From the NCBI GenBank assembly GCA_964472415.1, contig CAYYLC010000004.1, positions 33,110 to 97,109 on the forward strand: a stretch of DNA of 64,000 bases, written 5' to 3'. Of the stretch, positions 24,143-59,400 are shown piece after piece (position 1 is the stretch's first letter; every line of letters begins with the position of its first letter). The translations under genes and the position numbers were made by a program. Origin of the DNA: an uncultured Gammaproteobacteria bacterium. Its GTDB lineage: Bacteria > Patescibacteriota > Microgenomatia > Levybacterales > GWA1-39-11. Below the pieces are notes generated by a model. The model searched no databases, had not been told where the DNA came from, and was given only the letters and a program-made list of their open reading frames with translations.

Positions 24143-24149
24143 TAAAAAT

Positions 24150-25789: not shown

Positions 25790-25816
25790 TCTTCTATCCC
25801 TTCTCGCGACAATCGC

Positions 25817-28996: not shown

Positions 28997-29641
28997 ATGC
29001 CATCAAAATACGTTTTACGAGACTTCAAGCAGGGTGAATACTACCACGTCGCAAATTATGGCGTAGACAAACGGAGTATATTTGAAGATGAAGAGGATTT
29101 TAGAACCTTTCTCTACTATCTAAAAGTATATCTACTTCCCAAAGAAACACTTGAAAAAATGCCCAATCTCCCCAAACGAATGCTCTCAAAAAATAGACAT
29201 TCAGAGGTAGAGCTTCTCTCATATAGCCTCATGCCAAACCATTTTCATTTATTACTGGGCGAAAAAGAGCTCGGCGGAATATCCTTAATCATGAAGCAAC
29301 TCTCAAATGCGTACACCAAGTATTTTAATGAGCGCCACAAACGCTCCGGTAGCTTATTTGAAGGCCCTTTTAAAGCCGCACATGTCAAAAGCGATGAAAT
29401 CATACAAGTCACCCGCTACATTCACCTAAACCCATTCCTTGCGGGACTCGTAGATGATCCTGATAAATACCGCTGGTCTGACTTTCCAACGTACACAAAT
29501 TCGCAAGAGGTGAATATCTCAAACACAAGCCCAGTACTTTCACAATTCAATACGCCAGCTGACTACAAACATTTTGTGCATAACTACATGGACTATGCTG
29601 AAAAAATAAAGGGACTCGACCACGTTTTAATAGATAATTAA
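28997..29641 (+). CDS. IS200/IS605-like Y1 (HUH) transposase family protein (PF01797-like, long form)
   Basis: HUH motif 'LMPNHFHLLL' and a downstream catalytic-Tyr region 'VTRYIHLNP...DPDKYRWSDF'. At 214 aa it is longer than canonical IS200 TnpA. Confidence 0.6.
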   Translation: MPSKYVLRDFKQGEYYHVANYGVDKRSIFEDEEDFRTFLYYLKVYLLPKETLEKMPNLPKRMLSKNRHSEVELLSYSLMPNHFHLLLGEKELGGISLIMKQLSNAYTKYFNERHKRSGSLFEGPFKAAHVKSDEIIQVTRYIHLNPFLAGLVDDPDKYRWSDFPTYTNSQEVNISNTSPVLSQFNTPADYKHFVHNYMDYAEKIKGLDHVLIDN

Positions 29642-32721: not shown

Positions 32722-33936
32722 ATGGTAAAACACGTCAAAAGCCCGATGCTCAGGACTATTCTGATTGTTCTCGTAATATCTATTGTTGCGATTGGGGCAA
32801 TAGCATATGGAAAGGGCTACCGCATCACAAAAGACGAATCTGGGCGACAAATTGTTGCCGGAACTGGATTGCTCGTAATCACCTCTTCCCCTGATGGCGC
32901 CCGGACATTTATTGATGGCGAGCTTTCAACCGCAACAGATGACACAATAAATCTCAAACCTGGCAAATATACAGTAAAGATTGAAAAGGATGGATATTTT
33001 CCTTGGGAAAAAGAAATAGTAATAAAAAACGAACAGGTTACCGAAACAAATGCACTTCTTTTCCCAAAAGCTCCTCAACTTACCAATCTCACGACTACAG
33101 GAATCTCAAACCCCGTTTCAGATAGTAAGGGGCAAATACTTGCCTACACCGTAGCATCTGCTTCTGCAAATTTGAATGGCGTTTATATCATGAATCTTAA
33201 TCGAGGATTTCTGCCTATCGGAGATGCACACCGACAAATCAGTAGTAATCTCATTGATAACTTTTCAGAAGCGACACTCGAGTTTTCACCAGATAGCTCA
33301 GAGCTTCTCGCAACCATAACACCTACCGCAAGTGGTTCAGCAAGAAGCTACTTGTTGCGAACAAATGAATTCAATCCTTCACCACTACTCGTTACCGCAA
33401 GTGCAGATACTATTCGTGAAAACTGGAAACAAGATATGGAAGAAATTCTCGATGAACGACTTCGCTCGATGCCGAAAAATGCTAGAATTCTTGCAAAAGA
33501 GTATTTTGCAAATCCTCTCTTTTCACCAGAAGAAGACAATATTCTCTATACAGCATCAGCTTCCGGAACGCTCTCTATAGCAATCAACCCGCCCATCCCG
33601 AGCACAAACTCTACTCCTGAGGTACGAAACGTCGTAGAGGGAAATCTTTATGTTTACAATATTAAAGACGATAAAAATTATCTATTTCGTGAAAAAACTG
33701 AAGATACAGAATTTCCACAATTTATCTGGCATCCTGATAACAGACATCTCTACTATATAGAAAACAATAGGATTAACTCGGTAGAATATGACGGATTCAA
33801 TAAAACAACTGTGTACGCTGGACCATTTATCAATAATTTTCTTGTACCATGGCCGGATGGAGCTGGCATGGTCATTCTTACGAGTTTTAACGATTCATCC
33901 ATTCCCCCAAATCTTTATCGCATCATCTTTAAATAG
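32722..33936 (+). CDS. membrane-anchored PEGA-domain protein with beta-rich C-terminal region
   Basis: N-terminal TM helix. 'LLVITSSPDGARTFIDGELSTATDDTINLKPGKYTVKIEKDGYFPWEKEIVIK' is a PEGA domain. Confidence 0.45.
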   Translation: MVKHVKSPMLRTILIVLVISIVAIGAIAYGKGYRITKDESGRQIVAGTGLLVITSSPDGARTFIDGELSTATDDTINLKPGKYTVKIEKDGYFPWEKEIVIKNEQVTETNALLFPKAPQLTNLTTTGISNPVSDSKGQILAYTVASASANLNGVYIMNLNRGFLPIGDAHRQISSNLIDNFSEATLEFSPDSSELLATITPTASGSARSYLLRTNEFNPSPLLVTASADTIRENWKQDMEEILDERLRSMPKNARILAKEYFANPLFSPEEDNILYTASASGTLSIAINPPIPSTNSTPEVRNVVEGNLYVYNIKDDKNYLFREKTEDTEFPQFIWHPDNRHLYYIENNRINSVEYDGFNKTTVYAGPFINNFLVPWPDGAGMVILTSFNDSSIPPNLYRIIFK

Positions 33937-33981: not shown

Positions 33982-34839
33982 ATGAGAAAAGCAGTATTTT
34001 TTTGTACGGTTCTACTATTCACTACTATCACGACTCCACTGCACGCCCAGACGATGACTTTTCCGGAAAAATCGCAATCAGGGAACACAACAGTAAACGC
34101 TACCGTAGGTGACAGATTTATAACAGTTACCGGCTATCAATCTCCCAATGCATCCGTAGTCATAGAAACGCTTCGGAGAATTTTTATGAGCTCAACTACT
34201 GCTGATGGGAATGGGCATTTTACAATCTCAGAACTCCTTATCACAGATGACTTTCCAGGATTCTGCTTTACCGCGATAGACTTTCGGAGAGTTGGAGAGT
34301 CCGAATCTTGTGTGGAAATAGAAAAAATTACCCGCGACGGCGAAACATACGAGGATATTTTCCTTCCACCGACTATTGGGCTTTCAAAAAAACTTATAAC
34401 AGTCGGAGAAAACGCGCAGATATTTGGATATTCTATGCCACATGCTCAAGTAAATATTCAGTTCAATAATGAAACAGTTACTATTCAATCAGATGAAACA
34501 GGATACTACGAATATATTTTCGAGAACCCTCCCGCCGGAACATATGCATTCTCATCTCGTGGAGTCCTTGGTGAAAAAACATCCCTAGATCCAGAAAATA
34601 AAGCTATCCTTGAGGTGATTACCCTTCCTGAAAAAATTCGTGATGATATAACCGGTTTTGCACAAGATATTGATGACCGATTCCCGGGAATTCTGTTTCT
34701 CGCACCACTTCTTCTGATTTTCATTGCACTGCTTATACTTCTCTTCTGGAAAACACAGCCGAAATTTCTTTTCATTATATTTGACAAATTCAAAAAGCGA
34801 CATCCAATGCACCACGATTACTTCCTATTCCAACACTAA
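33982..34839 (+). CDS. hypothetical surface protein (signal peptide plus C-terminal TM anchor)
   Basis: Signal peptide ending '...PLHA|QT', a beta-rich body and a C-terminal hydrophobic helix with a basic tail. Confidence 0.35.
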   Translation: MRKAVFFCTVLLFTTITTPLHAQTMTFPEKSQSGNTTVNATVGDRFITVTGYQSPNASVVIETLRRIFMSSTTADGNGHFTISELLITDDFPGFCFTAIDFRRVGESESCVEIEKITRDGETYEDIFLPPTIGLSKKLITVGENAQIFGYSMPHAQVNIQFNNETVTIQSDETGYYEYIFENPPAGTYAFSSRGVLGEKTSLDPENKAILEVITLPEKIRDDITGFAQDIDDRFPGILFLAPLLLIFIALLILLFWKTQPKFLFIIFDKFKKRHPMHHDYFLFQH

Positions 34840-35030: not shown

Positions 35031-36542
35031 ATGATTTCTAGAATTTATCTTCTTCTGCCTTTGCTGGGCATAAGCATCGGTATTACAGGGCTCTTCCTTT
35101 TTGTTTTCACGAAAAATGCTCACGCAGCAACACTTATAAACGCAAGTAACACTATTACAACATCTCGCCCTTCAGCCGCTTCACCCTTTTCTTCAGATGT
35201 TTCTGGTACTGACACTACAGCAGCGATTCTGAATAATGGATCGTTCTATCTTGCATCAGATTCTGCACAAATCAGACAAGGGCAAAGTGGCGCACTTATT
35301 GATGCAGCAACAATTATCGCTTCACAATCTGCAGCACTCACTACTGTGTATTTTTCAGAGGCTGTCGGCGCTGGGGCTGGAGCTGACTCAGATGTTCTCA
35401 TTGTACCAATCACTGCTATGCATAGAATCCAATTTACTATACCTCAAACGATTCCTACCTCTGGAGACATTGTACTCACCTTCCCAATACTTGAGACTGG
35501 AGATGCAAATAATGAAGCTTCTCCTTCTGCCTCTACATTCCAGTTCAACGACCTCGATACGAACGCTGCCACACTCATTCACGTAGTAGATGATGGAACG
35601 GATATCACCGCAAATATTACTGCCGCTGCCACAAATCCTGCGAGCGCTGGGGACTCACCAGAGATCATCATTACCCTTAATAGTGGAAGCATTGTCTCAG
35701 GAAGCGTTGTAGATATATTTATCGGTTGCACAACTATTGCAGCTGGTGACTGCTCTGCCCAGACACCGACACTCATTAACCCGACAAAGACTGCATCAGC
35801 TGGGACTGCTGATGTCTGGAAAATAAATGCTCAGACTCGAGATGCATCTGATGTGAATCTCGATAACGCTACTATTGCTATCGGCACTATTGAATCTGTT
35901 ACCGTTCGGGCAACTGTAGATCCAACACTCTCCTTCACTATTTCTGGGATTGGAAATGGATCAGCAATTAATCTCGGAAACACGACCGGATGCTTGCAAA
36001 CGGAAACAACAAATGCTGGGATTGATTCTACTTCTACTGAGGTAAACCTTGGACTCCTCGCTAATACTCCATCAGGAACTGATGTAAAAGTAGGAAATAT
36101 TGCAGCACAAAGAATCAACATAACCACGAATGCTGCTGGAGGATATATTCTCGCTGCAACATCATCCGGACAACTCATCAACCCAGAAACCGGATTTTTC
36201 CTTAACTCCTCTACCACTCCGACTGCATTCCCTTCAAGTGGCGCTGACTGGTTCGGTATTCATCCGTGTGGACTTGATGTAACTACTGCCACGTGGAATT
36301 CTACTGCAAGTACTGCATGTAGCAGCTTTGTAAGTGGTTCAACAGATCCGATTTGTCTGTATGCGTGGCCTACACAGAGTGCACCACTTACTCTTGCATC
36401 AGATGCAGTAGGACCTATTGGTAACTCACTTGTTACTGGAAATGGAGTAATTTCTGTTGCGTACGCCGCGTCTGTAGATCCGGGAATCCCCCCAGGATCA
36501 TATAGAACAGTAATAACGTATGTGGCAACACCAGTATTCTAG
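35031..36542 (+). CDS. secreted S/T-rich surface protein with WxL-like C-terminal domain (CscB/C-like), paralog A
   Basis: Signal peptide (AHA|A) and a C-terminal ~180 aa with 'LSFTISGIGNGSAINLGN...' and a terminal 'YRTVITYVATPVF'. These parallel WxL domain features ('l.l.svP..inFG', a terminal 'Y.GTLTWTL...P'). Confidence 0.45.
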   Translation: MISRIYLLLPLLGISIGITGLFLFVFTKNAHAATLINASNTITTSRPSAASPFSSDVSGTDTTAAILNNGSFYLASDSAQIRQGQSGALIDAATIIASQSAALTTVYFSEAVGAGAGADSDVLIVPITAMHRIQFTIPQTIPTSGDIVLTFPILETGDANNEASPSASTFQFNDLDTNAATLIHVVDDGTDITANITAAATNPASAGDSPEIIITLNSGSIVSGSVVDIFIGCTTIAAGDCSAQTPTLINPTKTASAGTADVWKINAQTRDASDVNLDNATIAIGTIESVTVRATVDPTLSFTISGIGNGSAINLGNTTGCLQTETTNAGIDSTSTEVNLGLLANTPSGTDVKVGNIAAQRINITTNAAGGYILAATSSGQLINPETGFFLNSSTTPTAFPSSGADWFGIHPCGLDVTTATWNSTASTACSSFVSGSTDPICLYAWPTQSAPLTLASDAVGPIGNSLVTGNGVISVAYAASVDPGIPPGSYRTVITYVATPVF

Positions 36543-36579
36543 AGTTGAGATTATATAAAAATTAATAAATAATAAAAAT

Positions 36580-37563
36580 ATGAAACATCCTGCTCAAGCA
36601 AAATATTTTATAAAAATAACACTCCCCGCAATCCTTATTTCCTTCTTCTTCGTGGCTCTCGCTCAGATCGTATTCGCACAAGAAGCACCTCAAAGAAGCA
36701 TCACAATATCTCCGCCAACCATTGAGCATACTCTTATCCCAGGAGAACGTGCTGAAGGGGTTCTCAAAGTTACAAATGGAGGAAATACTGACCTCACATT
36801 CCAGGCAAATATTCATGACTTTATCGTAGAAGATAAGATTGGAACTCCAAATCTTCTTGCTGATGAAACCTTAACTGAAAAATATTCTGCTGCCACTTGG
36901 CTTGCAGTGACGCCAAATTCCTTCACTGTTCCAGCAGGAACTACGAAGGAGCTAAGCTATTTTCTTCAGGTGCCAGCTGATGCTGCACCAGGCGGAAGAT
37001 ACGCTGCAGTAGTCTATGAGCCAGTTAATATTCTAGATGTTGAAGGGACCGGTGCTGGAGTAAACACCCAATCACTTTCACTCTTTTACATAACTATTGA
37101 TGGACCAATCACAGAAGATGCTGAAGTTGTAAATTTTTCTATTCCAGGATTTTCTGAATATCCTCCTGTAACTGTTTCTACAGAAATTAAAAATAATGGT
37201 CCGCTTCATATTAAACCAAGCGGAAGTATTATTATCCGGAATATGTTTGGCAAAGAAATCGCACGACATGAATTCACTGGCGGAAACATCTTCCCAGAGG
37301 CAACACTCCTGTATGAAAATGAGTTTTTCTCAGATTCAAAGATTCGCGTTGGGCGCTATACGGCAGAACTTTCCACAGCATTTGGTCGCGATCTCAATAT
37401 CCCCCTTGAAGCAACCGCATCATTCATCATCTTCCCTTGGAAAATTGCAGCAGGAATCGCACTTCTTATCGCAATCCTCGTAGTCACAGTTGTGCTCATA
37501 AGAAATAAAAAAACACCTAAAAATCCTCGACCCGAAGCGACGCCTCAACCAACCATAAAATAG
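36580..37563 (+). CDS. DUF916/DUF3324-like cell-surface protein with C-terminal TM anchor (CscA-like)
   Basis: Signal peptide, 'ITISPPTIEHTLIPGERAEGVLKVTNGGNTDLTF' (DUF916-like pattern), a later 'IIIRNMFGKEIARHEF' (DUF3324-like), a C-terminal TM helix and a basic tail. Confidence 0.45.
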   Translation: MKHPAQAKYFIKITLPAILISFFFVALAQIVFAQEAPQRSITISPPTIEHTLIPGERAEGVLKVTNGGNTDLTFQANIHDFIVEDKIGTPNLLADETLTEKYSAATWLAVTPNSFTVPAGTTKELSYFLQVPADAAPGGRYAAVVYEPVNILDVEGTGAGVNTQSLSLFYITIDGPITEDAEVVNFSIPGFSEYPPVTVSTEIKNNGPLHIKPSGSIIIRNMFGKEIARHEFTGGNIFPEATLLYENEFFSDSKIRVGRYTAELSTAFGRDLNIPLEATASFIIFPWKIAAGIALLIAILVVTVVLIRNKKTPKNPRPEATPQPTIK

Positions 37564-37572
37564 GGAAATAGT

Positions 37573-39051
37573 TTGACAGAAGATTTTATTTCTGCGCACA
37601 ATAATACAATGAAGATAATTTTTGTACTTATGATATCCGCAATTCTCTTTTTTGTAAAAATCTCTCATGCGAATGCGGCAGACCTTATCAATACTCGTGA
37701 CACACTCTCAACTTCTCGCCCATCAGCAGCTTCTCCTTTTACCAGTAATGCAGCCTCTAATGACCGGACTATTACAATTTTGAATAACGGATCGTTCTAT
37801 CTTGCATCAGATTCTGCACAAATAATCCGACACTCAACAGGCACAATTCTCGCAACTGATATTCCTATATCTTCTCAATCTGCGGGGCTTTCTACTATCT
37901 ATCTCGGAGATGATATCGGTACGAATACAACTTCAGGAGATGATATATTGCTCGTTCCAATTACCTCAACTCATACCATACGATTTACTACTGCCTCAGA
38001 AATCCCCGCTGGTGGAGATATACTCCTTACATTTCCGGGAGCAGCGAATAACTCTGCTTCTCCTTCTGCAACTACGTTTGCCTTTAATGGGCTAAATAGC
38101 ACTGGTGGACTTCCAGGAGGAATTTCTAGTCATAACATTTCATGTAATACAAATTCCTTTGTTTTTTCTCCACAAATCATGTGTGAAACAACAGGCTCAG
38201 TTCCGGCTGGCACTACAATAACTATTCTTATTGGCTGCACTGCACAGTCCGGTGGAAATTGTACGACTCAATCTCCGACACTCATCAATCCAACAAAGAC
38301 TACAACCACTGGAACCGCAGATATCTGGAAAATATTTATCCAGACCCGAGATGCAACAGACATAGAACTCGACTCTGCAACCGTTGCAATCGGCACAATA
38401 GATTCTGTTACTGTTCGTGCGTCTATTGATCCCTCTCTTACCTTTGCAATTACAGGAATCGGAAATGGTTCAGCAGTTAACCTTGGAAACACGACCGGAT
38501 GCTTGCAAACGGAAATTACCAATTCGGGCCTCAATTCAACCGCAACTGAAATAAATCTTGGACTCCTTGCAGATACTCCATCAGGAATTGATGTAAGAGT
38601 AGGAAATATTGCAGCACAACGAATCAATATTAGCACCAATGCTGCGAATGGCTATACGCTATCAGCAACATCATCCGGTCAACTTATCAATCCTACCACT
38701 GGATTTTTCCTCGCATCTTCTACCACTCCAACCGCATTCCCTTCAAATAGTTCAGATTGGTTCGGTATCCATCCGTGTGGACTTGATGTAACTACTGCCA
38801 CGTGGAATTCTACTGCAAGTACTAGCTGCAATACGTATATTTCGGGTTCAACAGATCCGATTTGTCTGTATGCGTGGCCTACACAGAGTGCACCACTTAC
38901 TCTTGCATCAGATGCAGTAGGACCTATTGGTAACTCACTTGTTACTGGAAATGGAGTAATTTCTGTTGCGTACGCCGCGTCTACTGATGCAGGCGTTCCC
39001 CCAGGAAGTTATTCTACAGTTATCACCTATACTGCAACTCCAGTCTTCTAG
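37573..39051 (+). CDS. secreted S/T-rich surface protein with WxL-like C-terminal domain, paralog A'
   Basis: Same architecture as 35031..36542. The 3' region contains 138 identical nucleotides. Confidence 0.45.
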   Translation: MTEDFISAHNNTMKIIFVLMISAILFFVKISHANAADLINTRDTLSTSRPSAASPFTSNAASNDRTITILNNGSFYLASDSAQIIRHSTGTILATDIPISSQSAGLSTIYLGDDIGTNTTSGDDILLVPITSTHTIRFTTASEIPAGGDILLTFPGAANNSASPSATTFAFNGLNSTGGLPGGISSHNISCNTNSFVFSPQIMCETTGSVPAGTTITILIGCTAQSGGNCTTQSPTLINPTKTTTTGTADIWKIFIQTRDATDIELDSATVAIGTIDSVTVRASIDPSLTFAITGIGNGSAVNLGNTTGCLQTEITNSGLNSTATEINLGLLADTPSGIDVRVGNIAAQRINISTNAANGYTLSATSSGQLINPTTGFFLASSTTPTAFPSNSSDWFGIHPCGLDVTTATWNSTASTSCNTYISGSTDPICLYAWPTQSAPLTLASDAVGPIGNSLVTGNGVISVAYAASTDAGVPPGSYSTVITYTATPVF

Positions 39052-42673: not shown

Positions 42674-43045
42674 TTATTCTCCTAAAATCGTCTTTACTTT
42701 CGCTACCAAATCATCTGCTGAAACTTGATATTTAAGAATATAATCTTGTGCGCCAAAATTCAGTGCCTCTTTTACCATATCGTCATGCCCAAAATTCGTA
42801 AGCATAGAAACATGGATTTGGGCACTTGCTGGATTCGCCTTAATAGCTTTCAACGCTTCATTACCACTCATATTCGGCATCATCTGATCAAGCAAAATCA
42901 AATCAAACTGTTGTGACGCAGAAAGATCTACTGCTTCTTTTCCATTCCCCGCAATCACAACTTCATACCCCGCAGCTTGTAACGCCACGTAGTATACATT
43001 TCGTATCTCCTCCTCATCATCCACGAGGAGGATCCTTTTTGCCAT
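42674..43045 (-). CDS. single-domain response regulator (CheY-like receiver)
   Basis: 'ILLVDDEEEIR', 'DLILLDQMMPNMSG' and a conserved K region in 'DYILKY'. No output domain. Confidence 0.8.
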   Translation of the reverse strand: MAKRILLVDDEEEIRNVYYVALQAAGYEVVIAGNGKEAVDLSASQQFDLILLDQMMPNMSGNEALKAIKANPASAQIHVSMLTNFGHDDMVKEALNFGAQDYILKYQVSADDLVAKVKTILGE

Positions 43046-50019: not shown

Positions 50020-50622
50020 ATGAGCTATCTCACCAAATATATAGCGGTTATTCTCTCCTTCCTTTTCACCGGGATCATAAAAAGTAGCCCACTCGAATCC
50101 CAAATGGGTTTTATCCTCGCTGCGCTCATTATCTTTGCCATCATATACATAATAAGCCAACGAAGAAATCCTACATTTAACAAACTCTTCTCTGGCAACC
50201 CCCCTGAAATATTTTTTATTAGTAGCATCGTAATTCTTATGATAGAAGTATCGGGAGGAGCGAACTCATCACTCTACTTTTTGAGCTATTTTCTCTTGTT
50301 TGGCCTCCCCTTAATTAGCACACCTTATATGTCTCTCGCAGTGACGCTCTGCTTTATAGCATTCTATATGCCAGATCTCCTCCGAAGCTTTAACACTGAT
50401 ATAATCCTCAAGATAGGCTCATTTCTCCTCCTCCTCCCTTTATCGTATTTTCTTTCAAATGAGCTCATGAAACGCTCTCGTGAAAATGAAGACCTCAAAG
50501 ATCTTGCAGAAAAAATTGAACTCGAGGCAACAGAGTTGGAAGCAAATGAAGCTGATATGCATGAGAGGGAAAAGCTCGACGAGATCATAGAATCCGCTGA
50601 AAAAATAAAGGATCAATCATGA
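50020..50622 (+). CDS. hypothetical membrane protein with acidic coiled-coil tail
   Basis: 4 TM helices and a C-terminal E/D-rich helix. Its stop overlaps the start of the next gene (ATGA). Confidence 0.4.
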   Translation: MSYLTKYIAVILSFLFTGIIKSSPLESQMGFILAALIIFAIIYIISQRRNPTFNKLFSGNPPEIFFISSIVILMIEVSGGANSSLYFLSYFLLFGLPLISTPYMSLAVTLCFIAFYMPDLLRSFNTDIILKIGSFLLLLPLSYFLSNELMKRSRENEDLKDLAEKIELEATELEANEADMHEREKLDEIIESAEKIKDQS

Positions 50623-51377
50623 ATAGCTTATCTCGCCTTCTTATAGCCTCAGGAATTACCATTAGCAGTCTCTCTATTCTTATGATAGGAACACAAGTTT
50701 ACGCCCAACAAGGTGGTGGCAGACTCTCTAATGATCAATACATCTTACATGAGGGGAACTTCAACTATACTTCTGGAAAAGGAGCAAATGATGAATTTGA
50801 CCTCACATTTACAGGTGGCGAGATCGCTCAAGGTCAATTTTCTGGAGATAATTATACGGTATATTCAGGTTTCCAATACTATTACACGATTATCCCTTTT
50901 GAGTTTTCTGTTTCGAGTCAATTCATAGATTTTGGCCCTCTAATTCCAGGAACTCCGGTAACACGCACAAATCGCCTTACACTGTCAAATGGATCAGCAT
51001 TTGGGTATGAAGTACTTGCATATGAGAATCATGCTCTGAGAATAGACTCTACAGGCGTAGATATACCCGACACCACTTGCGACTCAGGAACGTGCTCGGA
51101 AACCACAAGCGATGAATGGGTCACAAATACTACATATGGATTCGGGTATCGATGTGAGAACATTACCGGCTCTGAATGTAATGCAGCCTTTACTCCTAAT
51201 TCTTATAAGCAATTTTCAAATCTTGAGCAAAATGAAACACCTGAGGCTGTTATGAGCGGTGATGATGTCGGAGAAGGATTTGAGGTAGAAATGATTTACA
51301 AAGTCAATGTATCTTCCACACAGCCTGCAGGGCTCTATCAAAACCACATTACCTATATCGCAACGCCAAGCATATAA
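50619..51377 (+). CDS. secreted protein with WxL-like domain (short paralog of 35031/37573 C-terminal domain)
   Basis: Signal peptide (VYA|QQ), 'FEFSVSSQFIDFGPLIPG' and a terminal 'YQNHITYIATPSI', the same C-terminal signature as the 35-39 kb paralogs. Confidence 0.4.
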   Translation: MNSLSRLLIASGITISSLSILMIGTQVYAQQGGGRLSNDQYILHEGNFNYTSGKGANDEFDLTFTGGEIAQGQFSGDNYTVYSGFQYYYTIIPFEFSVSSQFIDFGPLIPGTPVTRTNRLTLSNGSAFGYEVLAYENHALRIDSTGVDIPDTTCDSGTCSETTSDEWVTNTTYGFGYRCENITGSECNAAFTPNSYKQFSNLEQNETPEAVMSGDDVGEGFEVEMIYKVNVSSTQPAGLYQNHITYIATPSI

Positions 51378-51692: not shown

Positions 51693-52745
51693 GTGGAATA
51701 TCATAAACAATCCCACGTTTTTTTCTTTGAATTACCGTACGCAATATACGATAATATCTATATGCAAAAACATTTCCTGGTAGCATTGTTCTTATTGCTT
51801 GCTATAGCACCCACTGCAAATGCACAACAATTTCATGTTGGAATAGAGCCTACGAGTATCTATATTGACGCCACTCCACCCTCAAATGTACAAGCACCCT
51901 TCCTCCTTAAAAATCTTTCAGGGAGAAACGTCGAACTGAAGCCAAAGCTCATCCCTTTTGAACCAGACATGAATGGGAAGGTAAAACTTCTTATTAACGA
52001 AGGGCAAAACCTTGACTCAATTATCCGTGAAAGACTTACAATTATTGATGAAAATGAAGCTATTGGCTCGATACACCTTACCCCTGGAGAGACCAAACAA
52101 CTTCGCCTCTTTCTCGAACTGAAGCCGGGAGATCCTGTAGGTGACTATTATTTCAGCCTCGTTTTTATGGCTGAAGGAAATGAGCTCGACCAAACCAGCA
52201 CATCTTCAATTCCTGCTGGAATCACTACGAACGTAATGCTCTCCATTGGCCCAAAAGAGCCACCTTCAGCTTCAATACAAGAGTTTTCTACAAACTCATT
52301 CACAACCAAAGGTCCAGTCGCATTCAGCCTCAAAGTAGAAAATAATGGCAACCATCTCATCCAGCCAAAAGGCACCATTGCTATTAAAAATATGCTTGGA
52401 AAAGAAGTAGGGAGGCTCGAAATATTGCCCCAATATCTTCTTGCAAACTCAAGCCGACTCCTCATTGATTCAAATCAAGCCTCTCCTTCGGCTCAAATAG
52501 ACTCATTCATACAAGACCTAGAACTCACTCAACCTGCAGCTATATGGGGAGAGAAATTCCTTTTCGGATTCTATACTGCTGAGGCGAGACTCACATTTGA
52601 TAATAGCAATGAACCTATCTCACAAAAAACGCAGTTTCTCGCGATTCCCCTTCAAGTAATCTTTTTCCTATCGGGAGTTATTTTTATAACTTTAGGCATT
52701 CTCCTCCGCGTAAAGCTTCGAATAAGAAGAAAAAATACTCCATAA
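51693..52745 (+). CDS. DUF916/DUF3324-like cell-surface protein with C-terminal TM anchor (paralog of 36580..37563)
   Basis: 'IAIKNMLGKEVGRLEI' parallels 'IIIRNMFGKEIARHEF'. It has a signal peptide and a C-terminal TM helix plus an RIRRKNTP tail. The true start is probably the internal Met 'MQKHFLVALFLLL'. Confidence 0.4.
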   Translation: MEYHKQSHVFFFELPYAIYDNIYMQKHFLVALFLLLAIAPTANAQQFHVGIEPTSIYIDATPPSNVQAPFLLKNLSGRNVELKPKLIPFEPDMNGKVKLLINEGQNLDSIIRERLTIIDENEAIGSIHLTPGETKQLRLFLELKPGDPVGDYYFSLVFMAEGNELDQTSTSSIPAGITTNVMLSIGPKEPPSASIQEFSTNSFTTKGPVAFSLKVENNGNHLIQPKGTIAIKNMLGKEVGRLEILPQYLLANSSRLLIDSNQASPSAQIDSFIQDLELTQPAAIWGEKFLFGFYTAEARLTFDNSNEPISQKTQFLAIPLQVIFFLSGVIFITLGILLRVKLRIRRKNTP

Positions 52746-53451: not shown

Positions 53452-56400
53452 ATGGAATTTATTGCACTTTTCAAAGACTATCTTTCAAAGAAGAAAATAA
53501 CAAACAAGACGACTGTCAAAAACTATCTCTCTGATATTCGTCATTTTGTGAATTGGTATGAGAAATCATTTGGTATCGCCTTTTCTCCAACAGAATTTAC
53601 CGATGATATTATAAAGCTCTATGAAGGATCTTCTGGTGCTCCGATCCTGGGTGGAAATATTTCAACAGAGAACAAGCTCTCACACTCCTCCCTGAAGCGC
53701 CATCTTTCCTCATTGAGAAAGTTTGCACTATTTCTGACAGAAAATAAACAAGTAGAGAAGAATCCATTTCATCAAGGAAAGGTTAATGGACAGGACTCGA
53801 CACCTGTCGATATTTGGCATATTCAGGAATTCAAAGATTACCTGAAATTTAAGAAAGCATCCCCTCTAACAATAAAGAACTATCTCACAGATATACATTC
53901 TTTCCGGAGATGGTATGAGAACTCTCTCGGGGAGAATTCTGAAGATTTAAGCTTTCCTCGTATCAATAATACGATCGTTTCTGAATACAAAACCCGCCTC
54001 CACGAATATAAAGGTGCTGCACCACGCACAATTAACCGAAAGCTTTCTTCTCTAAGAAAATATGTTGAATTTGCCATCGGCGCATACTACATGAGTGAAA
54101 ACACACTCCATGAAACGACTGCCACAAAACCATTCCTCATCTCCGAAAATGAGGCCAAAGAAGAGAATAAGCTATCACTTACTGAGATAAAATCCCACAA
54201 AATCAATCTAAACTATTCCTCCTTTCCCCCTATCAGACTTATCCAAACTCTGATAATTCTGCCCTATCTCTTCCTTGAAGGATTTCTCGCAGCAAAAATT
54301 GCAGAACTTCTCGGAACAGTAGCACCCCTCACTCTTGCTGCACAGAAACTTACTCCAGCTCCAAAAATATCCTCAATTCCCACCAAACCTTCTGAACTTT
54401 TAAAGGTAAAAGGATATGAGAAAAAGTTCTACGCTCCCCAAGATATTTCCACGAGCAATCTCTCGTCTCCTGAAAAAATCTGGCATAAACTAAAACACAA
54501 TAGACCGAAATGGTATAAAAAATATCATAATACTCCAATAGTTCACTATATTCATTTTGCGATTCTTATCATTTTTGCTGCAGGGGTCGGAGTTGCGCTC
54601 TATAGAAACTTAGTAACTGATACAAAAAGCCCACTCTTTGCAGCCCCCACCTCTCCACCTCGAGTACTCTCCTTCCAAGGTCGGCTTACTGATAATTTGA
54701 ATAATCCCATAACCACTGCGACTGATATTCGCTTCGCGATATATGATGATATTGCAGCATCCGGGTCTGCACTGCTCTGGCAAGAAGTCCATCACGCAAC
54801 AAATCCTGACCAAGATGGAATTTTTTCTGTTTTACTCGGAACTCAAACTGCGATTCCTGATAGTGTATTTTTAGAAAATAATGACATCTATTTAGGAGTA
54901 ACGATCGAACAAACAGAAGAATTAGCACCTCGGAGAAGAATTGCATCAGTTCCCTATGCCGCAAATTCAGAAAGCCTCCAAGGAATGCGCCCCATCACTG
55001 ACACAAGCGCTGGAACCACAAACGTTGTTCTTGCACTCGATTCTTCTGGAGATCTCACAATAGGCGGAGCCGCAAATCCAACATTTTCCGCAACAGGAGG
55101 CCAATTCTCTCTTTCCGGCGATATTTTACTCCTGACAACCGAAACCGGCACAGATTCAAACATAGTACTCTCTCCTGATGGAATCGGTCAGATTGATTTG
55201 CAGAAAACGCTTGTAAATACTTCAACTAACGGAAATCTTGTCCCTGGGGGAGTAGAAGTTAATGATAAATTTGGTGTACTTGCTACAGAATCTGCAGTTG
55301 CCGCATTTATCGTGAATAATGACGGGCTTTCAGATATTTTCACTGCATCCGCATCAGGTGCAACCCGTTTTACTATAGAAAGTGATGGAACATTGATTGC
55401 TCCTAACTACAATACTGCCGGAGGAGTACTCTGGGCAAATGGAAGCGGAGAGATTAACCAATCAACAGGTGGCCTCTCTGGACAATGCCTCCAATCTACT
55501 GGGGGAACTGCTCCCACGTGGGGAGCATGTGACAGCTCGGCTGGTGGTATGTTCCAAGAGCTTGCTGGTGCGATCATACCAAACAATACAACACTTGATT
55601 TTCTCCTCGGTGGAACCGCTACCTCATCCGCCAAATTCTCGGTTCTTAACATGAATTCGGGAACACCAATCGCATCAATATCGGCAAATTTTGGTAACAA
55701 CGCAACCTACCTAACTGGAGATGGAACTCTTGCAACTACAAACCGTCGTGATCTTATCCTCGGAAACTCCTCCTCCTATAATACAACGGGGAATGTTCTT
55801 ATAAACACGAACGGAACAGGGAGAGTCGGGATTGGTACAGGAGCACCATCAACCAAACTTGATGTAAATGGATCAGGAGGCGTAGCGCTATTTGGAACTG
55901 CAAGTCTTGTTGATCAATATATCTCCCTAAGAAGTCCCTCAACGGGAGTATCATTTGGTATTGATGCAAATCTCAATGGAGGAAGCGGCGCGGGACTCAT
56001 ACAAGCAGGGACCAGCAAAGCCCTCGCGTTTGATGCAAACAATGGAACATTCGGCTCTGCCACCACGCCAGATTTATATATTGATACTACAGGGTATGTT
56101 GGGATTGGTGATGCATCACCTACTGCTCTTTTCACGGTAGGAAATGGTGACCTTTTCCAAGTTAACGCAAGCGGCGCAATTGCAGCCGCAACGGGAATAA
56201 CTTCATCTGGCACTATCACCCTTTCAAATCTTAATACAAATGGAGGAATACTATACGCAAACGGATCAGGAGTACTTACCCAAACCGGAGCTGGTACCTC
56301 TTCTCAATGTCTTCTCGGTGGCACTACTCCTACATGGGGAACATGCGCTGATGGAGCTGGCGCATTTACGATCGATGCAGCAAATGGACTAACTGTCCAG

Positions 56401-59400
56401 AATAACACAACCACAGACTTTCTGATCGGAGGGACAGCAACAAGTAGTGCGAAATTTGCATTAACAAATGTGGATTCTGGTCCTCCTACATTTACTGTAG
56501 GGAGTGGGGATCCGATATTGAAAGGGACGTATAATACGAGCGGAGGTGTTGAGGACATCTATGTATCTGGAAAATATGTGTATGTAGCGGATGGCAGCTC
56601 TGGCCTACAGATAATAGACGCATCGGATCCTTCATCTCCAACACTTGTTGGAACATACGATACAAGTGGGAATGCACTCGGGGTTCATGTATCGGGTAAA
56701 TATGCATACATCGCAGACGATACTGTAGGACTTCGAATCATCGACATCTCGGATCCTTCATCTCCAACACTTGTTGGAACATACAATACAAGTGGGAATG
56801 CTCGGAGCATTTATGTCTCAGGAAAATATGCGTATGTAGCAGACGGATTTTCTGGCCTACATATCATTGACATCTCGGATCCTTCGTCACCAACTCTTAC
56901 GGGAACATATGACACAAGTGGATACAGCTACGATGTCTATGTCTCAGGAAAATATGCGTATGTAGCAGATGATAGTGACTTGAAGATCATCGACATCTCG
57001 GATCCTTCATCTCCAACACTTGTTGGAACATACAATACAAGTGGGAATGCTCGGAGCATTTATGTCTCAGGAAAATATGCGTATGTAGGAGATCTAAGCT
57101 CTGGGATTCAGATTGTAAACATCTCGGATCCTTCGTCACCAACTCTTACAGCAGATGGTCCTGGAGGAGCTCATGATGTCTATGTCTCAGGAAAATATGC
57201 ATATGTGCCAAATGGAACGGGCGACTTTCAGCTTATTGACATCTCGGATCCTTCGTCACCAACTCTTACGGGAACATATGACACAAGTGGAGACGCTCGG
57301 AGCATTTATGTCTCAGGAAAATATGCGTATGTAGGAGATCTAAGCTCTGGTCTTCAAATTCTCGAACTCCCCGGCATAGACACTCCGACACTACATACAG
57401 GGAATATTGAAACAGGAAGTATTACCATAACTGAAAATGCAGATATAGGAAACAACCTATATGTACATAATGGACTGAATGTAGGAAATGGTGGTATTTA
57501 TTCACAGGGAGCACTCGGTATATTTTCAGGAACTTCTGGGACAAATCTTATCCAAGGAAATCCTACTGGAAAAGCACTTCTTACCTTGAATAATACCGGT
57601 GGATCTGATATCTTCACCGCCTCTGCTTCCGGTACTACTCTCTTTACCATAACGAATGCTGGAGGATTACGGCTTGGAACAGATGAAGGGACTTCTGGTG
57701 AGTGCCTGCTTTCAGGTGGTGTTGGAGCAGGTGCAAGCTGGGGATCGTGTGGCGCATCTTCCCAATGGACTACCACTGGATCTGATATTTACTACAATAC
57801 CGGGAATGTGGGAATCGGAACATCTGACATAACTGCAAAATTTGAAATATTATCCAACCTTGGCACTGGACATGCAGCATCAATTTCTGCTATAACTGCC
57901 AAATCATCACTTCTCGTCACCAATGATGGAACCGGAGATCTTATCACCGCATCTGCCTCTGGTAGCACAAAGTTCACTGTAGATAATGAGGGAAATATTT
58001 ACCTTTATGGGCAGATTATCGGTATGGGGGCTGACTTTGCTGAATATTATGAAAAAGAAGATTCTGATGAAGAATTTCTTGCAGGAAGTTTAGTATGTCT
58101 TGCAATAAACGGTACTGTTACAAATTGCAAAAATTCAGATACTACTCAGAAATTACTCGGCGTCGTATCAGACAATGCAATTATTGCAGGTAATGGAGAT
58201 AAAAAGGACGACAATAACTATGTCCTTGTAGGGCTTTTAGGACAGCTCCATGTACGGGTCACAGGAGATATACAAGCTGGAGATCCACTCACGATGTCTA
58301 ATCTTTCTGGCGTCGCAGAAAAAGCAACACAAGAAGGATTTATCATCGGATATGCCATGGAATCAAGTTCAAACACCAAAGATCGAATTATTACATCAAT
58401 TAAGTCGACGTACTACAATCCAAATCTCGCGCTCAATATCGCAGGTGACAATGCAGAAGAATTTGCTGCATCGCTCAATATAAAAAATACTGATGGAACA
58501 ATTGCTATTACTGATGTATCAGGAGCTATCATAAAACGTGCAGAGGCATTCTCACACGTCATCTCAGCAAATATAAATGCCGGAATTGTAAACGCACAAA
58601 AAGTTACGGGAAATGTTATAACAGGTACTACTGGTGCATTCCAAAGCCTTACTGCAACAACTGCAAACATCACCTCTGCCTCATTCAATTCGATTAGTAT
58701 TGGTTCAGAAAATGTTCTTATAGCAGGAACTTCTCTTCGCGACTATATCGCAGAGATCGTTGCAGAAAACATTGAAAATGTAAACTTTTCAAATGGTGAG
58801 GAAATCATTTCCCCGCTTGCCTCAATCGACCAGATAAATACGAATATTATCTCCCCACTTGCTGATGACAGTAGTGTGGAGATCGAACTGAAAAAAGATA
58901 GTATTGCGATACATAATACTGAAACTCAAGAAACCGTAGCTGAAATTGATCATGAGGGGAATGCTCGTTTTATCGGAGACATTGAAGCAAATGATGCAAC
59001 ATTTTCAGGGACACTATCAGCTGATAGAATAATCGCAGGAAATATCGATGGACTTGACGAGAAAATCTCTTCTATCGCAGGAAGCCTTGCACAGAACCAT
59101 CCTACTCCATCCTCACCTTCAGCAGATATCACTTCTACAGACGAATTTCAGGTGGGGAATCTCTATGCAGATCTTGGGATTTATTCGGAAGGATTAACGA
59201 TCCTGGGCACTACTACCACAAGTCAACTTACTGCAATGGATAGTATTGCAGTAGGGACTGGATTCGTGATAAACGAAAATTCAATCAATACATTGGGGAA
59301 AACACTTGAAATTCAACCGCTCCGTCAAGGAGCCATCAGCTTCATGGCTGGAAAAGTAATTATTGATACCGACGGAAACATGAATATCAATGGGAATCTT

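What the first reader, a model, noticed from the sequence alone, without database searches (positions are those of the whole stretch)
35031..39051. Csc/WxL-type cell-surface complex locus (WxL-like, DUF916/3324-like, WxL-like) in a non-Firmicutes-looking genome
Three co-directional genes encode two secreted paralogs and, between them, a DUF916/DUF3324-like protein.
- The paralogs' C-terminal ~180 aa carry WxL-domain hallmarks: a beta-strand 'LSFTISGIGNGSAINLGN' and a terminal 'Y..(I)T(Y)(V)ATP', where the canonical form is 'Y.GTLTWTL..P'.
- The middle protein has a signal peptide, a 'PGERAEGVLKVTNGGNTDLTF' block, a later 'IIIRNMFGKEIARHEF' block, and a C-terminal TM helix with a basic tail. 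This matches the DUF916/DUF3324 CscA-type anchor.

This is the gene-cluster grammar of csc/WxL loci, described so far as a low-GC Gram-positive (lactobacilli, enterococci, Listeria) speciality. It would be a probable envelope-display system in a CPR-like lineage. The second Trp of the WxL motif is replaced by Tyr, which suggests a divergent and possibly undescribed subfamily.
Basis: partly seen in the sequence, partly recalled or inferred. Interest (0 to 1): 0.75.

Follow-up and report, generated by a model that had tools for sequence, protein, structure and literature searches.

The report
CPR donor-strand pilus locus, not WxL
The three genes are real, but they most likely encode two pilus subunits and a membrane-anchored assembly chaperone of the recently described 'Pam' pilus of CPR bacteria; only the chaperone is distantly related to the Gram-positive WxL system (its WxLIP/DUF916 partner protein).

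Summary
**Observation confirmed.** Three co-directional genes encode two secreted paralogs (A and C, 63% identical). They flank a protein (B) with a signal peptide, two Ig-like domains and a C-terminal TM helix.

**Interpretation partly supported.**
- B is a genuine remote homolog of WxLIP/DUF916. The support is sub-threshold PF06030 hits in 32 of 59 family members, hhalign at 82–95% against authentic WxLIP (well above nulls), and solved E. faecium WxLIP as the best PDB fold match.
- A and C are not WxL proteins. There is no PF13731 hit in 53 members, hhalign against authentic WxL is 0.2–0.3% (inside the null distribution), and no WxL chain appears in the fold searches.

**Best explanation.** A 2026 preprint describes the CPR-specific 'Pam' pilus: two-domain pilins joined by donor-strand exchange, FimC/PapD-like chaperones with a TM anchor, a single-domain tip subunit and a two-Ig TM anchor. 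This window holds all of these parts. In 80 related loci the parts usually form a single seven-gene locus. The pilin family includes Roizmanbacteria proteins, the lineage where the preprint reports a distant PamA homolog.

**Novelty.** This is a new member of a very recently described kind. The chaperone–DUF916 link is not mentioned in that preprint.

The parts
35031..36542 (+). Pilin-like subunit A (503 aa). It has a signal peptide (aa 1-32, AHA|A), an N-terminal beta-sandwich region (aa ~33-286) and a conserved inter-domain linker that is the candidate donor strand (aa 287-299, ESVTVRATVDPTL, window 35889-35927). The C-terminal Ig-like domain (aa 300-503) ends in an invariant ...TYVATPxF-COOH.
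   Evidence: ORF. AF2 model: pLDDT 85.4, with the only segment below 50 at aa 290-297. Conservation profile. In 52 of 53 family members the protein ends in Phe, and there are three conserved Cys pairs. No Pfam hit. Homologous to a Roizmanbacteria protein at E=9e-22.
36580..37563 (+). Membrane-anchored chaperone-like protein B (CHA, 327 aa). It has a signal peptide, a DUF916-like Ig domain (aa 41-173, window 36700-37098), a second Ig domain (aa 181-284, window 37120-37431), a TM helix (aa 287-310, window 37438-37509) and a basic/Pro tail.
   Evidence: AF2 pLDDT 87.8. Foldseek best matches are WxLIP 9i1y/9i25 (E=2e-12), then the CfaA, CsuC, Caf1M and FimC chaperones. PF06030 hits in 32 of 59 members. 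hhalign against authentic WxLIP 76-83%, above nulls.
37609..39051 (+). Pilin-like subunit C (480 aa from the ATG at 37609; the TTG ORF starts at 37573). It is a paralog of A with the same domain plan and the same C-terminus (YSTVITYTATPVF).
   Evidence: 63% identity to A; start calls in other assemblies; HMM E=2e-219.
33982..34839 (+). R: a secreted protein with two Ig-like domains and a C-terminal TM helix (285 aa). It is the candidate pilus terminator and membrane anchor (PamR-like). Its mature N-terminus, TTVNATVGDRFITVTGY, resembles the pilin linker.
   Evidence: CarboxypepD_reg and Big_6 sub-threshold hits. Conserved neighbour in at least 50 of 80 loci. N-terminal motif consensus V.A.VG.fYLn.sGy. 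Support from the linker mini-HMM is only weak.
50020..50622 (+). p200: a small polytopic membrane protein with an acidic C-terminal tail. It is the first gene of the conserved seven-gene locus, its role is unknown, and its stop overlaps the start of S by 4 nt.
   Evidence: Family of 21 members and consensus. First gene position in about 25 loci. No Pfam hit.
50619..51377 (+). S: a single-domain small subunit (252 aa) homologous to the C-terminal domain of A and C. It ends PAGLYQNHITYIATPSI and lacks the linker motif. It is the candidate tip or initiator subunit (PamT-like).
   Evidence: BLASTP of the C-terminal strand, E=8e-4. C-terminal-domain HMM E=4e-6. Family hhalign against the pilin C-terminal domain 97.6%, E=4e-12; against authentic WxL 0.2-0.9%. 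No V.A[TS][VI] motif in 24 members.
51693..52745 (+). CHA2: a second membrane-anchored chaperone-like protein (350-aa ORF; the likely true start is the Met at about 51762). It is a paralog of B and the clearest DUF916 homolog in the system.
   Evidence: BLASTP against B, E=7e-16. hhalign of CHA2 against CHA 99.7%; CHA2 against authentic WxLIP 95.2%, E=2.5e-8, over the whole PGBD domain. Ectodomain-only score 48.6 against a null maximum of 26.5.
53452..59934 (+). Giant 2160-aa protein with an N-terminal Phage_int_SAM-like domain, LVIVD beta-propeller repeats and a Peptidase_G2 tailspike-type domain. It is a conserved neighbour of the locus, described as 'tail fibre-like', and its role is unknown.
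   Evidence: Pfam hits. Orthologs lie next to the locus in L006 and L076 and in about 35 of 80 survey loci.
32722..33936 (+). PEGA-domain membrane protein. It is conserved upstream only in the window-type (split) arrangement, and whether it belongs to the system is uncertain.
   Evidence: PF08308 at E=5e-12. PEGA>R>PIL>CHA order in L077-L089, L004 and L075.

Best explanation
This locus is the Microgenomatia version of the CPR 'Pam' pilus, a chaperone-assisted, usher-less, donor-strand-exchange pilus of a monoderm cell.

**Proposed mechanism**
1. A, C and the small subunit S are exported by Sec.
2. Each carries a C-terminal Ig-like domain that is probably incomplete, with an open groove.
3. The membrane-anchored two-Ig-domain proteins B (CHA) and CHA2 bind newly exported subunits. 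They fill the groove with a strand of their own DUF916-like domain.
4. The conserved inter-domain linker of the next subunit (aa 287-299 in A, alternating V-V-A-V) then displaces the chaperone strand, and the fibre grows from the membrane outwards.
5. S lacks the linker and would sit at the tip.
6. R (two Ig domains, a TM helix and an N-terminal linker-like strand) would cap the base and anchor the fibre.

**Shown here:** gene content, homology relationships, predicted folds, conserved synteny and conservation patterns.

**Inferred, by analogy with the published PamA/PamB cryo-EM structures and the WxLIP-WxL complex:** strand complementation, polymerisation, order of assembly, and the roles of S and R.
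For: **1. The published system has the same parts list.** bioRxiv 10.64898/2026.03.03.709456 describes CPR-only Pam pili. The pilins have an N-terminal beta-sandwich, a linker donor strand and a truncated Ig C-terminal domain. The FimC/PapD-like chaperones PamC and PamD carry C-terminal TM helices. There is a single-domain PamT, and PamR has two Ig/FnIII domains plus a TM helix plus an extra N-terminal strand. A 'tail fibre-like' neighbour is conserved. Homologs occur in Saccharimonadia and Microgenomatia, including a structure-checked Roizmanbacteria homolog at about 21% identity.

**2. The window holds all of these parts.**
- Pilin-like A and C.
- Two paralogous TM-anchored chaperone-like proteins.
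- Single-domain S, homologous to the pilin C-terminal domain (97.6%).
- R, with two Ig domains and a TM helix.
- A Peptidase_G2 giant protein.

**3. The parts are linked by synteny.** In 80 metagenomic loci they usually form one locus, p200>S>CHA2>PIL>CHA>R<GIANT> (also L076, L157 and L158).

**4. B folds like strand-donating chaperones.** Its best matches are WxLIP, then the chaperone-usher chaperones CfaA, CsuC, Caf1M and FimC (E from 1e-12 to 1e-8).

**5. The pilin family spans Microgenomatia.** A2 against A3 is 100%, E=1e-55; A against Roizmanbacteria P0507 is E=9e-22.

**6. The family has PamA-, PamB- and minimal-sized forms** of about 500, about 390 and about 225-250 aa. The minimal forms are signal peptide, then linker strand, then C-terminal domain, which is the classical chaperone-usher pilin layout.

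**7. Conservation fits a donor-strand mechanism.**
- The linker is highly conserved yet is the only segment with pLDDT below 50 in the monomer model.
- The C-terminus is fixed in 52 of 53 members.
- There are three conserved Cys pairs; the preprint reports two to three pairs.
Against: - No direct sequence or structure comparison with M. amalyticus PamA-E, PamC/D, PamR or PamT was possible. Membership therefore rests on architecture, synteny, taxonomy and the preprint's own statement about Microgenomatia homologs.
- The most conserved segment of A is the N-terminal TITTSRPSA stretch, not the linker. The identity of the donor strand is therefore not settled.
- No ATP-synthase genes lie in this window, although the preprint reports that association. 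An OSCP gene does lie near the locus in L075.
- The similarity between the R N-terminus and the linker is only weakly supported (E 0.4-2).
- The source is a preprint, not yet peer reviewed.
Confidence: 0.7

Rival explanations
1. One reading: a Csc/WxL-type cell-surface complex. A and C are divergent WxL-domain proteins (Trp replaced by Tyr) that bind peptidoglycan non-covalently. B is the WxLIP that holds them on the wall, and the complex is a non-filamentous display platform.
For: - B and CHA2 are real remote DUF916/WxLIP homologs with the WxLIP architecture.
- In WxL clusters, WxLIP is predicted and crystallised bound to WxL by inserting a strand that completes the WxL sandwich (PMC10599100; PDB 9i25).
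- The most common WxL cluster also has one WxLIP with a small and a large WxL. This parallels S plus A/C plus CHA.
Against: - No PF13731 hit in A, C, S, the isolated C-terminal domain or 53 family members, whereas controls score 1e-44 to 1e-65.
- hhalign is 0.2-0.9%, with scores inside the reversed and shuffled null distributions.
- An authentic-WxL HMM gives zero hits in the window and in 84 CPR loci.
- The conserved Asp(W-8)/Arg(W-6)/GTxAG context of WxL motif 1 is absent.
- WxL tails are variable (4-15 aa), whereas this family has an invariant terminal Phe.
- The conserved NQIDKxxxYFDLK motif of WxLIP is absent from B and CHA2.
Confidence: 0.12
2. A and C are non-polymerising surface adhesins or cell-envelope (S-layer-like) proteins built of Ig-like domains. 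B is a dedicated membrane tether or folding factor, and there is no donor-strand exchange.
For: - No polymerisation evidence could be generated here.
- The AF2 monomer model of the C-terminal domain is confident without a partner.
Against: - This does not explain the conserved set of two chaperone-like paralogs plus a C-terminal-domain-only subunit plus a TM-anchored two-Ig protein in one locus.
- It does not explain the minimal 'signal peptide, linker, C-terminal domain' family members.
- It does not explain the conserved but disordered linker or the invariant C-terminus.
- It conflicts with the experimental demonstration of filaments for the analogous Saccharimonadia system.
Confidence: 0.15

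Closest known systems
Pam pilus of Candidatus Mycosynbacter amalyticus (CPR, Saccharimonadia): PamA/B/E pilins, PamC/D chaperones, PamT, PamR. bioRxiv 10.64898/2026.03.03.709456.
   Same: - CPR-restricted.
- Sec-exported pilins with an N-terminal beta-sandwich, a linker and a C-terminal Ig-like domain, plus paired cysteines.
- Long and short pilin forms.
- Two FimC/PapD-like chaperones that keep a C-terminal TM helix.
- A single-domain small subunit.
- A two-Ig TM-anchored protein with an extra N-terminal strand.
- No usher.
- A tail-fibre-like neighbour.
- Homologs reported in Microgenomatia (Roizmanbacteria), the lineage of this family.
   Different: - Direct homology to the M. amalyticus proteins was not tested here.
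- The preprint needed a language-model search to reach Microgenomatia (about 21% identity), so this is a deeply divergent branch.
- The locus order differs: p200-S-CHA2-PIL-CHA-R-GIANT, split into two clusters 11 kb apart in this window.
- A polytopic p200 protein and a PEGA protein are associated here.
- No ATP-synthase genes lie in this window.
WxLIP (DUF916/PF06030 + DUF3324/PF11797 + TM helix) of Firmicute WxL/Csc clusters. PMC10599100, PDB 9i1y and 9i25.
   Same: - B and CHA2 share the architecture of signal peptide, Ig, Ig and TM helix.
- They are remote sequence homologs of the DUF916/PGBD domain (up to 95% hhalign).
- Solved WxLIP is their best fold match.
- WxLIP also binds its partner by donating a beta-strand that completes the partner's sandwich.
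   Different: - The window protein does not reach the PF06030 gathering score.
- The NQIDKxxxYFDLK motif is absent.
- The DUF3324 domain is not detectable by sequence.
- The partner proteins are not WxL proteins.
- The phylum is different (CPR rather than Bacilli).
Chaperone-usher pilus chaperones and pilins of Gram-negative bacteria (PapD/FimC, CfaA, CsuC, Caf1M; PapA/FimA).
   Same: - The two-Ig-domain 'boomerang' chaperone fold matches (Foldseek E from 1e-10 to 1e-8).
- The subunit plan is a donor strand plus an Ig-like domain with a fixed C-terminus.
   Different: - There is no outer membrane and no usher.
- The chaperone is membrane-anchored.
- The subunits carry an extra large N-terminal domain.
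- No PapD_N signal appears among the 25 Pfam families hit by the most members.
WxL domain proteins (PF13731; CscB/CscC, Swp/Lwp, ElrA).
   Same: - Secreted proteins with a C-terminal beta-rich domain.
- Encoded as small and large forms next to a DUF916-type protein.
- Superficially parallel motif strings: G-aromatic-x-L and Y.T.hT-aromatic.
   Different: Every sequence and fold test for WxL was negative. The terminal tail behaves differently.

Membership tests
WxL domain (PF13731) | Match to the Pfam WxL HMM at or above the gathering score (25 bits). | tested here: not met
   No hit at E<=10 for A or C. No hit for the isolated C-terminal domain or for S. None of 53 family members hit at E<=1. 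Authentic short WxL controls score 151-220 bits.
WxL domain (PF13731) | Two Trp-x-Leu motifs in their conserved contexts: Asp at W1-8, Arg at W1-6, a GTxAG turn, and ...LTWxLxDxP (PMC9772566). | tested here: not met
   The sequence has GGYIL and ITYVA instead, and the Asp and Arg positions are Ile and Thr. The context in authentic WxL is shown.
WxL domain (PF13731) | Profile-profile homology to authentic WxL domains. | tested here: not met
   hhalign of the A/C C-terminal domain against 57 short WxL gives 0.2%, and against 13 long WxL 0.3%. S against WxL gives 0.2-0.9%. The positive control, short against long WxL, gives 99.3%. The real scores of 14.2 and 15.4 lie within the reversed and shuffled nulls of 11-23.
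WxL domain (PF13731) | Fold similarity to a solved WxL domain (long WxL in PDB 9i25). | tested here: inconclusive
WxLIP (DUF916 + DUF3324 + TM helix) | PF06030 (WxLIP_PGBD/DUF916) match at the gathering score (27.3 bits). | tested here: not met
   The window protein scores 13 bits, E=0.11. However, PF06030 is the family hit by the most members, 32 of 59, with a best E of 4e-6.
WxLIP (DUF916 + DUF3324 + TM helix) | Homology of domain 1 to authentic DUF916/PGBD domains. | tested here: met
   hhalign against authentic WxLIP: CHA2 95.2% (E=2.5e-8, 124 columns covering the whole PGBD); B domain 1 82.8% (E=9e-6). Ectodomain-only scores are 48.6 and 43.6 against null maxima of 26.5 and 22.8.
WxLIP (DUF916 + DUF3324 + TM helix) | PF11797 (WxLIP_HBD/DUF3324) second domain. 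| tested here: inconclusive
   PF11797 is not among the 25 families hit by the most members. hhalign of domain 2 alone gives 3%, P=0.015. The Foldseek alignment to WxLIP does span both domains, 245-262 columns.
WxLIP (DUF916 + DUF3324 + TM helix) | Architecture of signal peptide, two Ig-like domains and a C-terminal TM helix, plus fold similarity to solved WxLIP. | tested here: met
   AF2 model. 9i1y_A, 9i1y_B and 9i25_C are the three best PDB matches (E from 2e-12 to 2e-11).
WxLIP (DUF916 + DUF3324 + TM helix) | Conserved N-terminal NQIDKxxxYFDLK motif (PMC10599100). | tested here: not met
   The motif is absent. In the hhalign alignment this region of WxLIP faces gaps, or 'PPI--QI' / 'PPT.E'.
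WxL/Csc gene cluster | At least one WxLIP and at least two WxL proteins within a few genes of each other (definition in PMC10599100). | tested here: not met
   A WxLIP-like protein is present, but no WxL protein occurs in the window, in L004, L006, L075 or L076, or in the 80 survey loci.
Pam pilus system (CPR) | Pilins homologous to PamA/PamB/PamE of M. amalyticus. | not testable with these tools
Indirect support: the family includes Roizmanbacteria proteins, the lineage of the preprint's structure-checked distant PamA homolog.
Pam pilus system (CPR) | Pilin plan of N-terminal beta-sandwich, linker strand and C-terminal Ig-like domain, with paired cysteines. | tested here: met
   This is met by prediction only. 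The AF2 model has beta domains separated by a conserved linker at 287-299 with low pLDDT. There are three conserved Cys pairs. Minimal family members consist of a signal peptide, the linker and the C-terminal domain.
Pam pilus system (CPR) | Two FimC/PapD-like chaperones that retain a C-terminal TM helix. | tested here: met
   B and CHA2 are paralogs. Both have C-terminal TM helices and basic tails. B matches chaperone-usher chaperones by fold.
Pam pilus system (CPR) | A single-domain tip-like subunit lacking the linker (PamT), and a two-Ig TM anchor with an N-terminal donor-like strand (PamR). | tested here: inconclusive
   S is homologous to the C-terminal domain alone and lacks the linker motif. 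R has two Ig-like domains, a TM helix and a conserved N-terminal V.A.VG motif. Its match to a linker mini-HMM is weak: it gives the top three of 507 non-pilin hits, but at E 0.4-2.
Pam pilus system (CPR) | Filament assembly by donor-strand exchange. | not testable with these tools
   This needs multimer modelling or experiment.
Classical chaperone-usher pathway | An outer-membrane usher and a periplasmic, soluble PapD-family chaperone (PF00345/PF02753). | tested here: not met
   All seven conserved gene families of the locus are accounted for, and none is usher-like. The chaperone-like proteins are TM-anchored. PapD_N is not among the 25 Pfam families hit by the most members.

The most novel reading that the evidence does not exclude
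The membrane-anchored chaperones of CPR Pam-type pili and the WxLIP (DUF916) proteins of Firmicute WxL/Csc clusters descend from one ancestral monoderm 'strand-donating' chaperone. Under this reading the WxL surface complexes and the CPR pili are two branches of a single usher-less chaperone-subunit system. Small and large WxL proteins would be the counterparts of the small and large pilins, diverged beyond sequence recognition. This would give the poorly understood WxL clusters a mechanistic framework of donor-strand complementation, and possibly polymerisation. It would also place the origin of chaperone-usher-like assembly in monoderm bacteria. The chaperone-level homology is already well supported here; the subunit-level homology is not.
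Probability: 0.3. Interest if true: 0.7.

Novelty: new member of a known kind. Interest (0 to 1): 0.45.

Why it matters
CPR/Patescibacteria make up a large share of bacterial diversity, and most live attached to host cells. How they make contact is largely unknown. The Pam pilus was identified only in 2026, in one cultivated Saccharimonadia parasite.

This window gives a fully parsed Microgenomatia version of the system:
- all components, with coordinates;
- a conserved seven-gene locus, seen in dozens of metagenomic contigs;
- a family of more than 600 sequence clusters, with PamA-, PamB- and minimal-sized forms.

These proteins are currently annotated as 'hypothetical' everywhere. The result also corrects a tempting mis-annotation: A and C are not WxL proteins. 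It keeps the part of the idea that is true, that the chaperone is a remote DUF916 homolog. That connects a Gram-positive surface system of unclear mechanism with donor-strand pili.

Tried and rejected
- **Direct Pfam and NCBIfam scans of A, B and C** gave nothing above threshold.
- **PDB sequence searches with the family profiles** gave only spurious hits, to a Fab light chain and a flavin reductase.
- **WxL reading of A and C** is rejected. I fetched 68 authentic Firmicute WxLIP loci through the NQIDKxxxYFDLK motif, extracted 77 WxL and 62 WxLIP proteins and validated them by Pfam. All profile tests with nulls were negative for WxL.
- **Attempts to reach M. amalyticus Pam sequences all failed.** The preprint supplement holds no sequences. 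Cluster look-ups of window proteins and of distant hits returned no names or accessions. A search re-centred on distant members reached Roizmanbacteria, Shapirobacteria and Microgenomates but not Saccharimonadia within the 120 rows listed.
- **Promoter and terminator scan of the locus** found nothing above the shuffled expectation.
- **Linker mini-HMM against R proteins** showed only weak enrichment, so the R 'donor strand' remains a hypothesis.
- **p200 family** has no detectable relation to any other component.
- **Merged CHA+CHA2 profile** failed to build because of a sub-script error. Those two output lines merely repeat the CHA2 result and are disregarded.
- **rRNA or another known RNA as the explanation for the ORF-poor stretch at 23-28 kb** was not found.

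Full report
**1. Observation.**
The three ORFs exist as described. A is 35031-36542 (503 aa), B is 36580-37563 (327 aa) and C is 37573-39051. Other assemblies call C from the ATG at 37609 (480 aa). They are co-directional with gaps of 37 and 45 nt. A and C are 63% identical.

Both protein types belong to large conserved families. There are 198 and 480 homologs at E<=1e-3. The exhaustive search finds 623 clusters at 50% identity for the A/C family. Every named relative comes from Patescibacteria/CPR: Levyibacteriota, Microgenomates, Roizmanbacteria or Shapirobacteria. The observation, and the remark that this is a CPR-like genome, are confirmed.

**2.
On direct Pfam scanning, A and C match nothing at E<=10. 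B gives only a sub-threshold PF06030 (DUF916/WxLIP_PGBD) hit, E=0.11, 13 bits against a cut-off of 27.3. NCBIfam adds nothing.

Scanning every member of the family alignments is more informative. PF06030 is the family hit by the most B-type members, 32 of 59, with a best E of 4e-6. None of the 53 A/C-type members hits PF13731 (WxL), even at E<=1.

**3. Structures.**
- **B.** AF2 gives pLDDT 87.8. The model has a signal helix, two beta-sandwich domains (41-173 and 181-284) and a TM helix (287-310).
- **B against the PDB.** The three best Foldseek matches are WxLIP of Enterococcus faecium, released in January 2026: 9i1y_A, 9i1y_B and 9i25_C, the last being 'WxLIP bound to long WxL' (E from 2e-12 to 2e-11). 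The next matches are chaperone-usher chaperones: CfaA, CsuC, Caf1M, SafB and FimC (E from 1e-10 to 1e-8).
- **A.** AF2 gives pLDDT 85.4. The model has beta-rich domains separated by one segment with pLDDT below 50, at aa 290-297.

**4. Rigorous WxL and WxLIP tests with authentic references.**
I back-translated the conserved WxLIP motif NQIDKxxxYFDLK (PMC10599100). With it I pulled 68 Firmicute loci from reference genomes and extracted 62 WxLIP and 77 WxL candidates. Pfam confirmed them: WxL at 1e-44 to 1e-65, and WxLIP at 1e-36 to 1e-54 for both PF06030 and PF11797.

| Profile-profile comparison | Result |
|---|---|
| Short WxL vs long WxL (positive control) | 99.3%, E=2e-20 |
| A/C C-terminal domain vs short WxL | 0.2% |
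| A/C C-terminal domain vs long WxL | 0.3% |
| B ectodomain vs WxLIP | 76%, E=2e-5, 210 columns |
| B domain 1 vs WxLIP | 83% |
| B domain 2 vs WxLIP | 3% |
| CHA2 family vs WxLIP | 95.2%, E=2.5e-8, whole PGBD domain |

- With permissive or global alignment, the C-terminal domain scores 14.2 and 15.4 against WxL. These values lie inside the distribution from reversed and block-shuffled WxL profiles, 11-23.
- The WxLIP signal is well above its nulls and does not depend on signal peptides or TM helices. Ectodomain-only scores are 48.6 and 43.6 against null maxima of 26.5 and 22.8.
- An HMM built from authentic WxL finds nothing at E<=10 in the window or in related CPR loci. It also finds nothing at E<=1e-3 in the 80 survey loci.
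- WxL proteins have variable tails of 4-15 residues. In contrast, 52 of 53 A/C-family members end in exactly ...TY[VI]AT[PAT]xF, with a terminal Phe.

**5. What the locus is.**
A literature search found bioRxiv 10.64898/2026.03.03.709456 (Troman et al., 2026). It reports cryo-EM structures of filaments from the CPR parasite Ca. Mycosynbacter amalyticus and defines the 'Pam' pilus.
[quoted passage not shown] They polymerise by donor-strand exchange.
- **Chaperones (PamC, PamD).** Two FimC/PapD-like proteins that, unusually, keep a C-terminal TM helix.
- **Tip subunit (PamT).** A single-domain protein.
- **Anchor (PamR).** It has two FnIII/Ig domains, a TM helix and an extra N-terminal strand.
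- **Context and distribution.** There is no usher, the pilins carry paired cysteines, and a tail-fibre-like neighbour is conserved. The distribution is restricted to CPR, mainly Saccharimonadia and Microgenomatia. Microgenomatia homologs were found only by language-model search, for example a Roizmanbacteria protein at about 21% identity.

**6. The window contains the whole parts list.**
Besides A, B and C, the upstream gene R (33982-34839) encodes a secreted protein with two Ig-like domains and a C-terminal TM helix.

- **p200 (50020-50622).** A polytopic membrane protein.
- **S (50619-51377, 252 aa).** It ends PAGLYQNHITYIATPSI.
- **CHA2 (51693-52745).** It has a TM helix and a basic tail.
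- **A 2160-aa giant protein.** It carries Phage_int_SAM, LVIVD and Peptidase_G2 (tailspike-type) domains.

The relationships between these proteins are as follows.
- CHA2 is a paralog of B (BLASTP E=7e-16; family hhalign 99.7%).
- S is a single-domain homolog of the A/C C-terminal domain (97.6%, E=4e-12; HMM E=4e-6).

In 80 metagenomic loci the dominant arrangement is one contiguous locus, p200>S>CHA2>PIL>CHA>R<GIANT>. The window's close relatives have the split form, PEGA>R>PIL>CHA>(PIL). The PIL-CHA-PIL triad occurs in only about 9 loci (also L076, L157 and L158).

**7. Features that fit donor-strand assembly.**
- **Linker.** The inter-domain linker of A (aa 287-299, ESVTVRATVDPTL) has alternating small hydrophobic residues. 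It is highly conserved, yet it is the only disordered segment of the monomer model.
- **Size classes.** The family contains forms of about 500 aa, forms of about 390 aa that lack roughly 100 N-terminal-domain residues, and forms of about 225-250 aa. The smallest forms consist of a signal peptide, the linker strand and the C-terminal domain. That is the layout of a classical chaperone-usher pilin.
- **Cysteines and C-terminus.** Three Cys pairs are conserved, and the C-terminal residue is invariant.
- **R protein.** R proteins carry a conserved V.A.VG.fYLn.sGy motif at the mature N-terminus. It resembles the linker plus first strand, VRAtVDPtLTFTIaGi. A linker mini-HMM ranks R proteins as the top three of 507 non-pilin hits, but at E 0.4-2. 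This is suggestive only.

**8. Link to the published family.**
I could not obtain the M. amalyticus sequences or structures. The exhaustive profile search plus a re-centred search showed that the A/C family extends continuously to proteins named from Ca. Roizmanbacteria, Shapirobacteria and Microgenomates. A2 against A3 gives hhalign 100%, E=1e-55. A against Roizmanbacteria P0507 gives BLASTP E=9e-22 over the full length. This is the lineage in which the preprint reports its structure-checked distant PamA homolog. Membership in the Pam family is therefore strongly suggested by architecture, synteny and taxonomy, but it was not demonstrated by direct comparison.

**9. Verdict.**
- **Best explanation (confidence about 0.7).** This is a Microgenomatia Pam-type pilus locus. 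A and C are pilins and B is a membrane-anchored chaperone. R, S, CHA2, p200 and the giant protein are further components or associates.
Right about the middle protein at superfamily level, since it is a remote DUF916/WxLIP relative. Wrong about the paralogs.
- **Novelty.** A new member of a kind described only months ago, and so far only in a preprint.
- **Not covered by the preprint.** It does not mention WxL, DUF916 or DUF3324. The homology between these CPR chaperones and WxLIP hints at a shared ancestry. Firmicute WxL clusters and CPR pili may both be usher-less, strand-complementation systems of monoderm bacteria.

Noticed in passing
It holds the polytopic membrane protein p200, the small single-domain subunit S, the second TM-anchored chaperone-like protein CHA2, and a 2160-aa giant protein with Phage_int_SAM, LVIVD and Peptidase_G2 domains. 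In most related genomes these genes are contiguous with the pilin-chaperone pair.
   Followed up: yes
window 23400-27900: An ORF-poor stretch of about 4 kb with raised GC (0.42 against 0.36-0.39 in the flanks). It contains only short ORFs with odd-looking translations. Rfam finds only tRNAs, even at E<=1e-3, so it is not rRNA or any known large RNA. It could be an undescribed structured RNA, decayed genes or mobile-element debris.
   Followed up: partly
window 53452-59934 (orthologs in L006 10663-, L076 13450-): The giant proteins next to the locus start with a phage-integrase SAM-like (DNA-binding type) domain. Extracellular-type beta-propeller (LVIVD/FG-GAP) and tailspike Peptidase_G2 domains follow. 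This is an unusual domain combination, and the orthologs reach 3700-5800 aa.
   Followed up: partly
window 39048-40757 (-) and 42674-43045 (-): A GAF/HisKA/HATPase histidine kinase converges on gene C, with the two stops overlapping by 4 nt. A response regulator lies 2 kb further on. The kinase is also adjacent in L004 and L005, so it is a possible regulator of the pilus genes in this lineage.
   Followed up: no
L006 6631-7780: In one related genome the pilin-like gene is split into two overlapping ORFs (182 and 211 aa) that together cover the family profile. This is either a frameshifted pseudogene or an assembly error.
   Followed up: no
L012 202-1896 (Gottfriedia solisilvae), reference set: An authentic long WxL protein (an LRR/internalin-type with a C-terminal WxL) does not hit Pfam PF13731 at E<=1. 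Yet the long-WxL C-terminal set aligns with short WxL at 99.3% by hhalign. The Pfam model appears to under-detect the 'large WxL' form.
   Followed up: partly
window 14138-17839: A 1233-aa secreted or membrane protein with Big_13 and Ig_Rha78A-type Ig-like domains. It is another large surface protein in the same window, with no detected relation to the pilus families.
   Followed up: no
window 28997-29641; L001 2418-3062: A Y1 (IS200/IS605-type) transposase gene lies between bacA and the WecG-MreB-PEGA block, a few kb upstream of the locus. It may be connected with the split of the ancestral seven-gene locus in this lineage.
   Followed up: no
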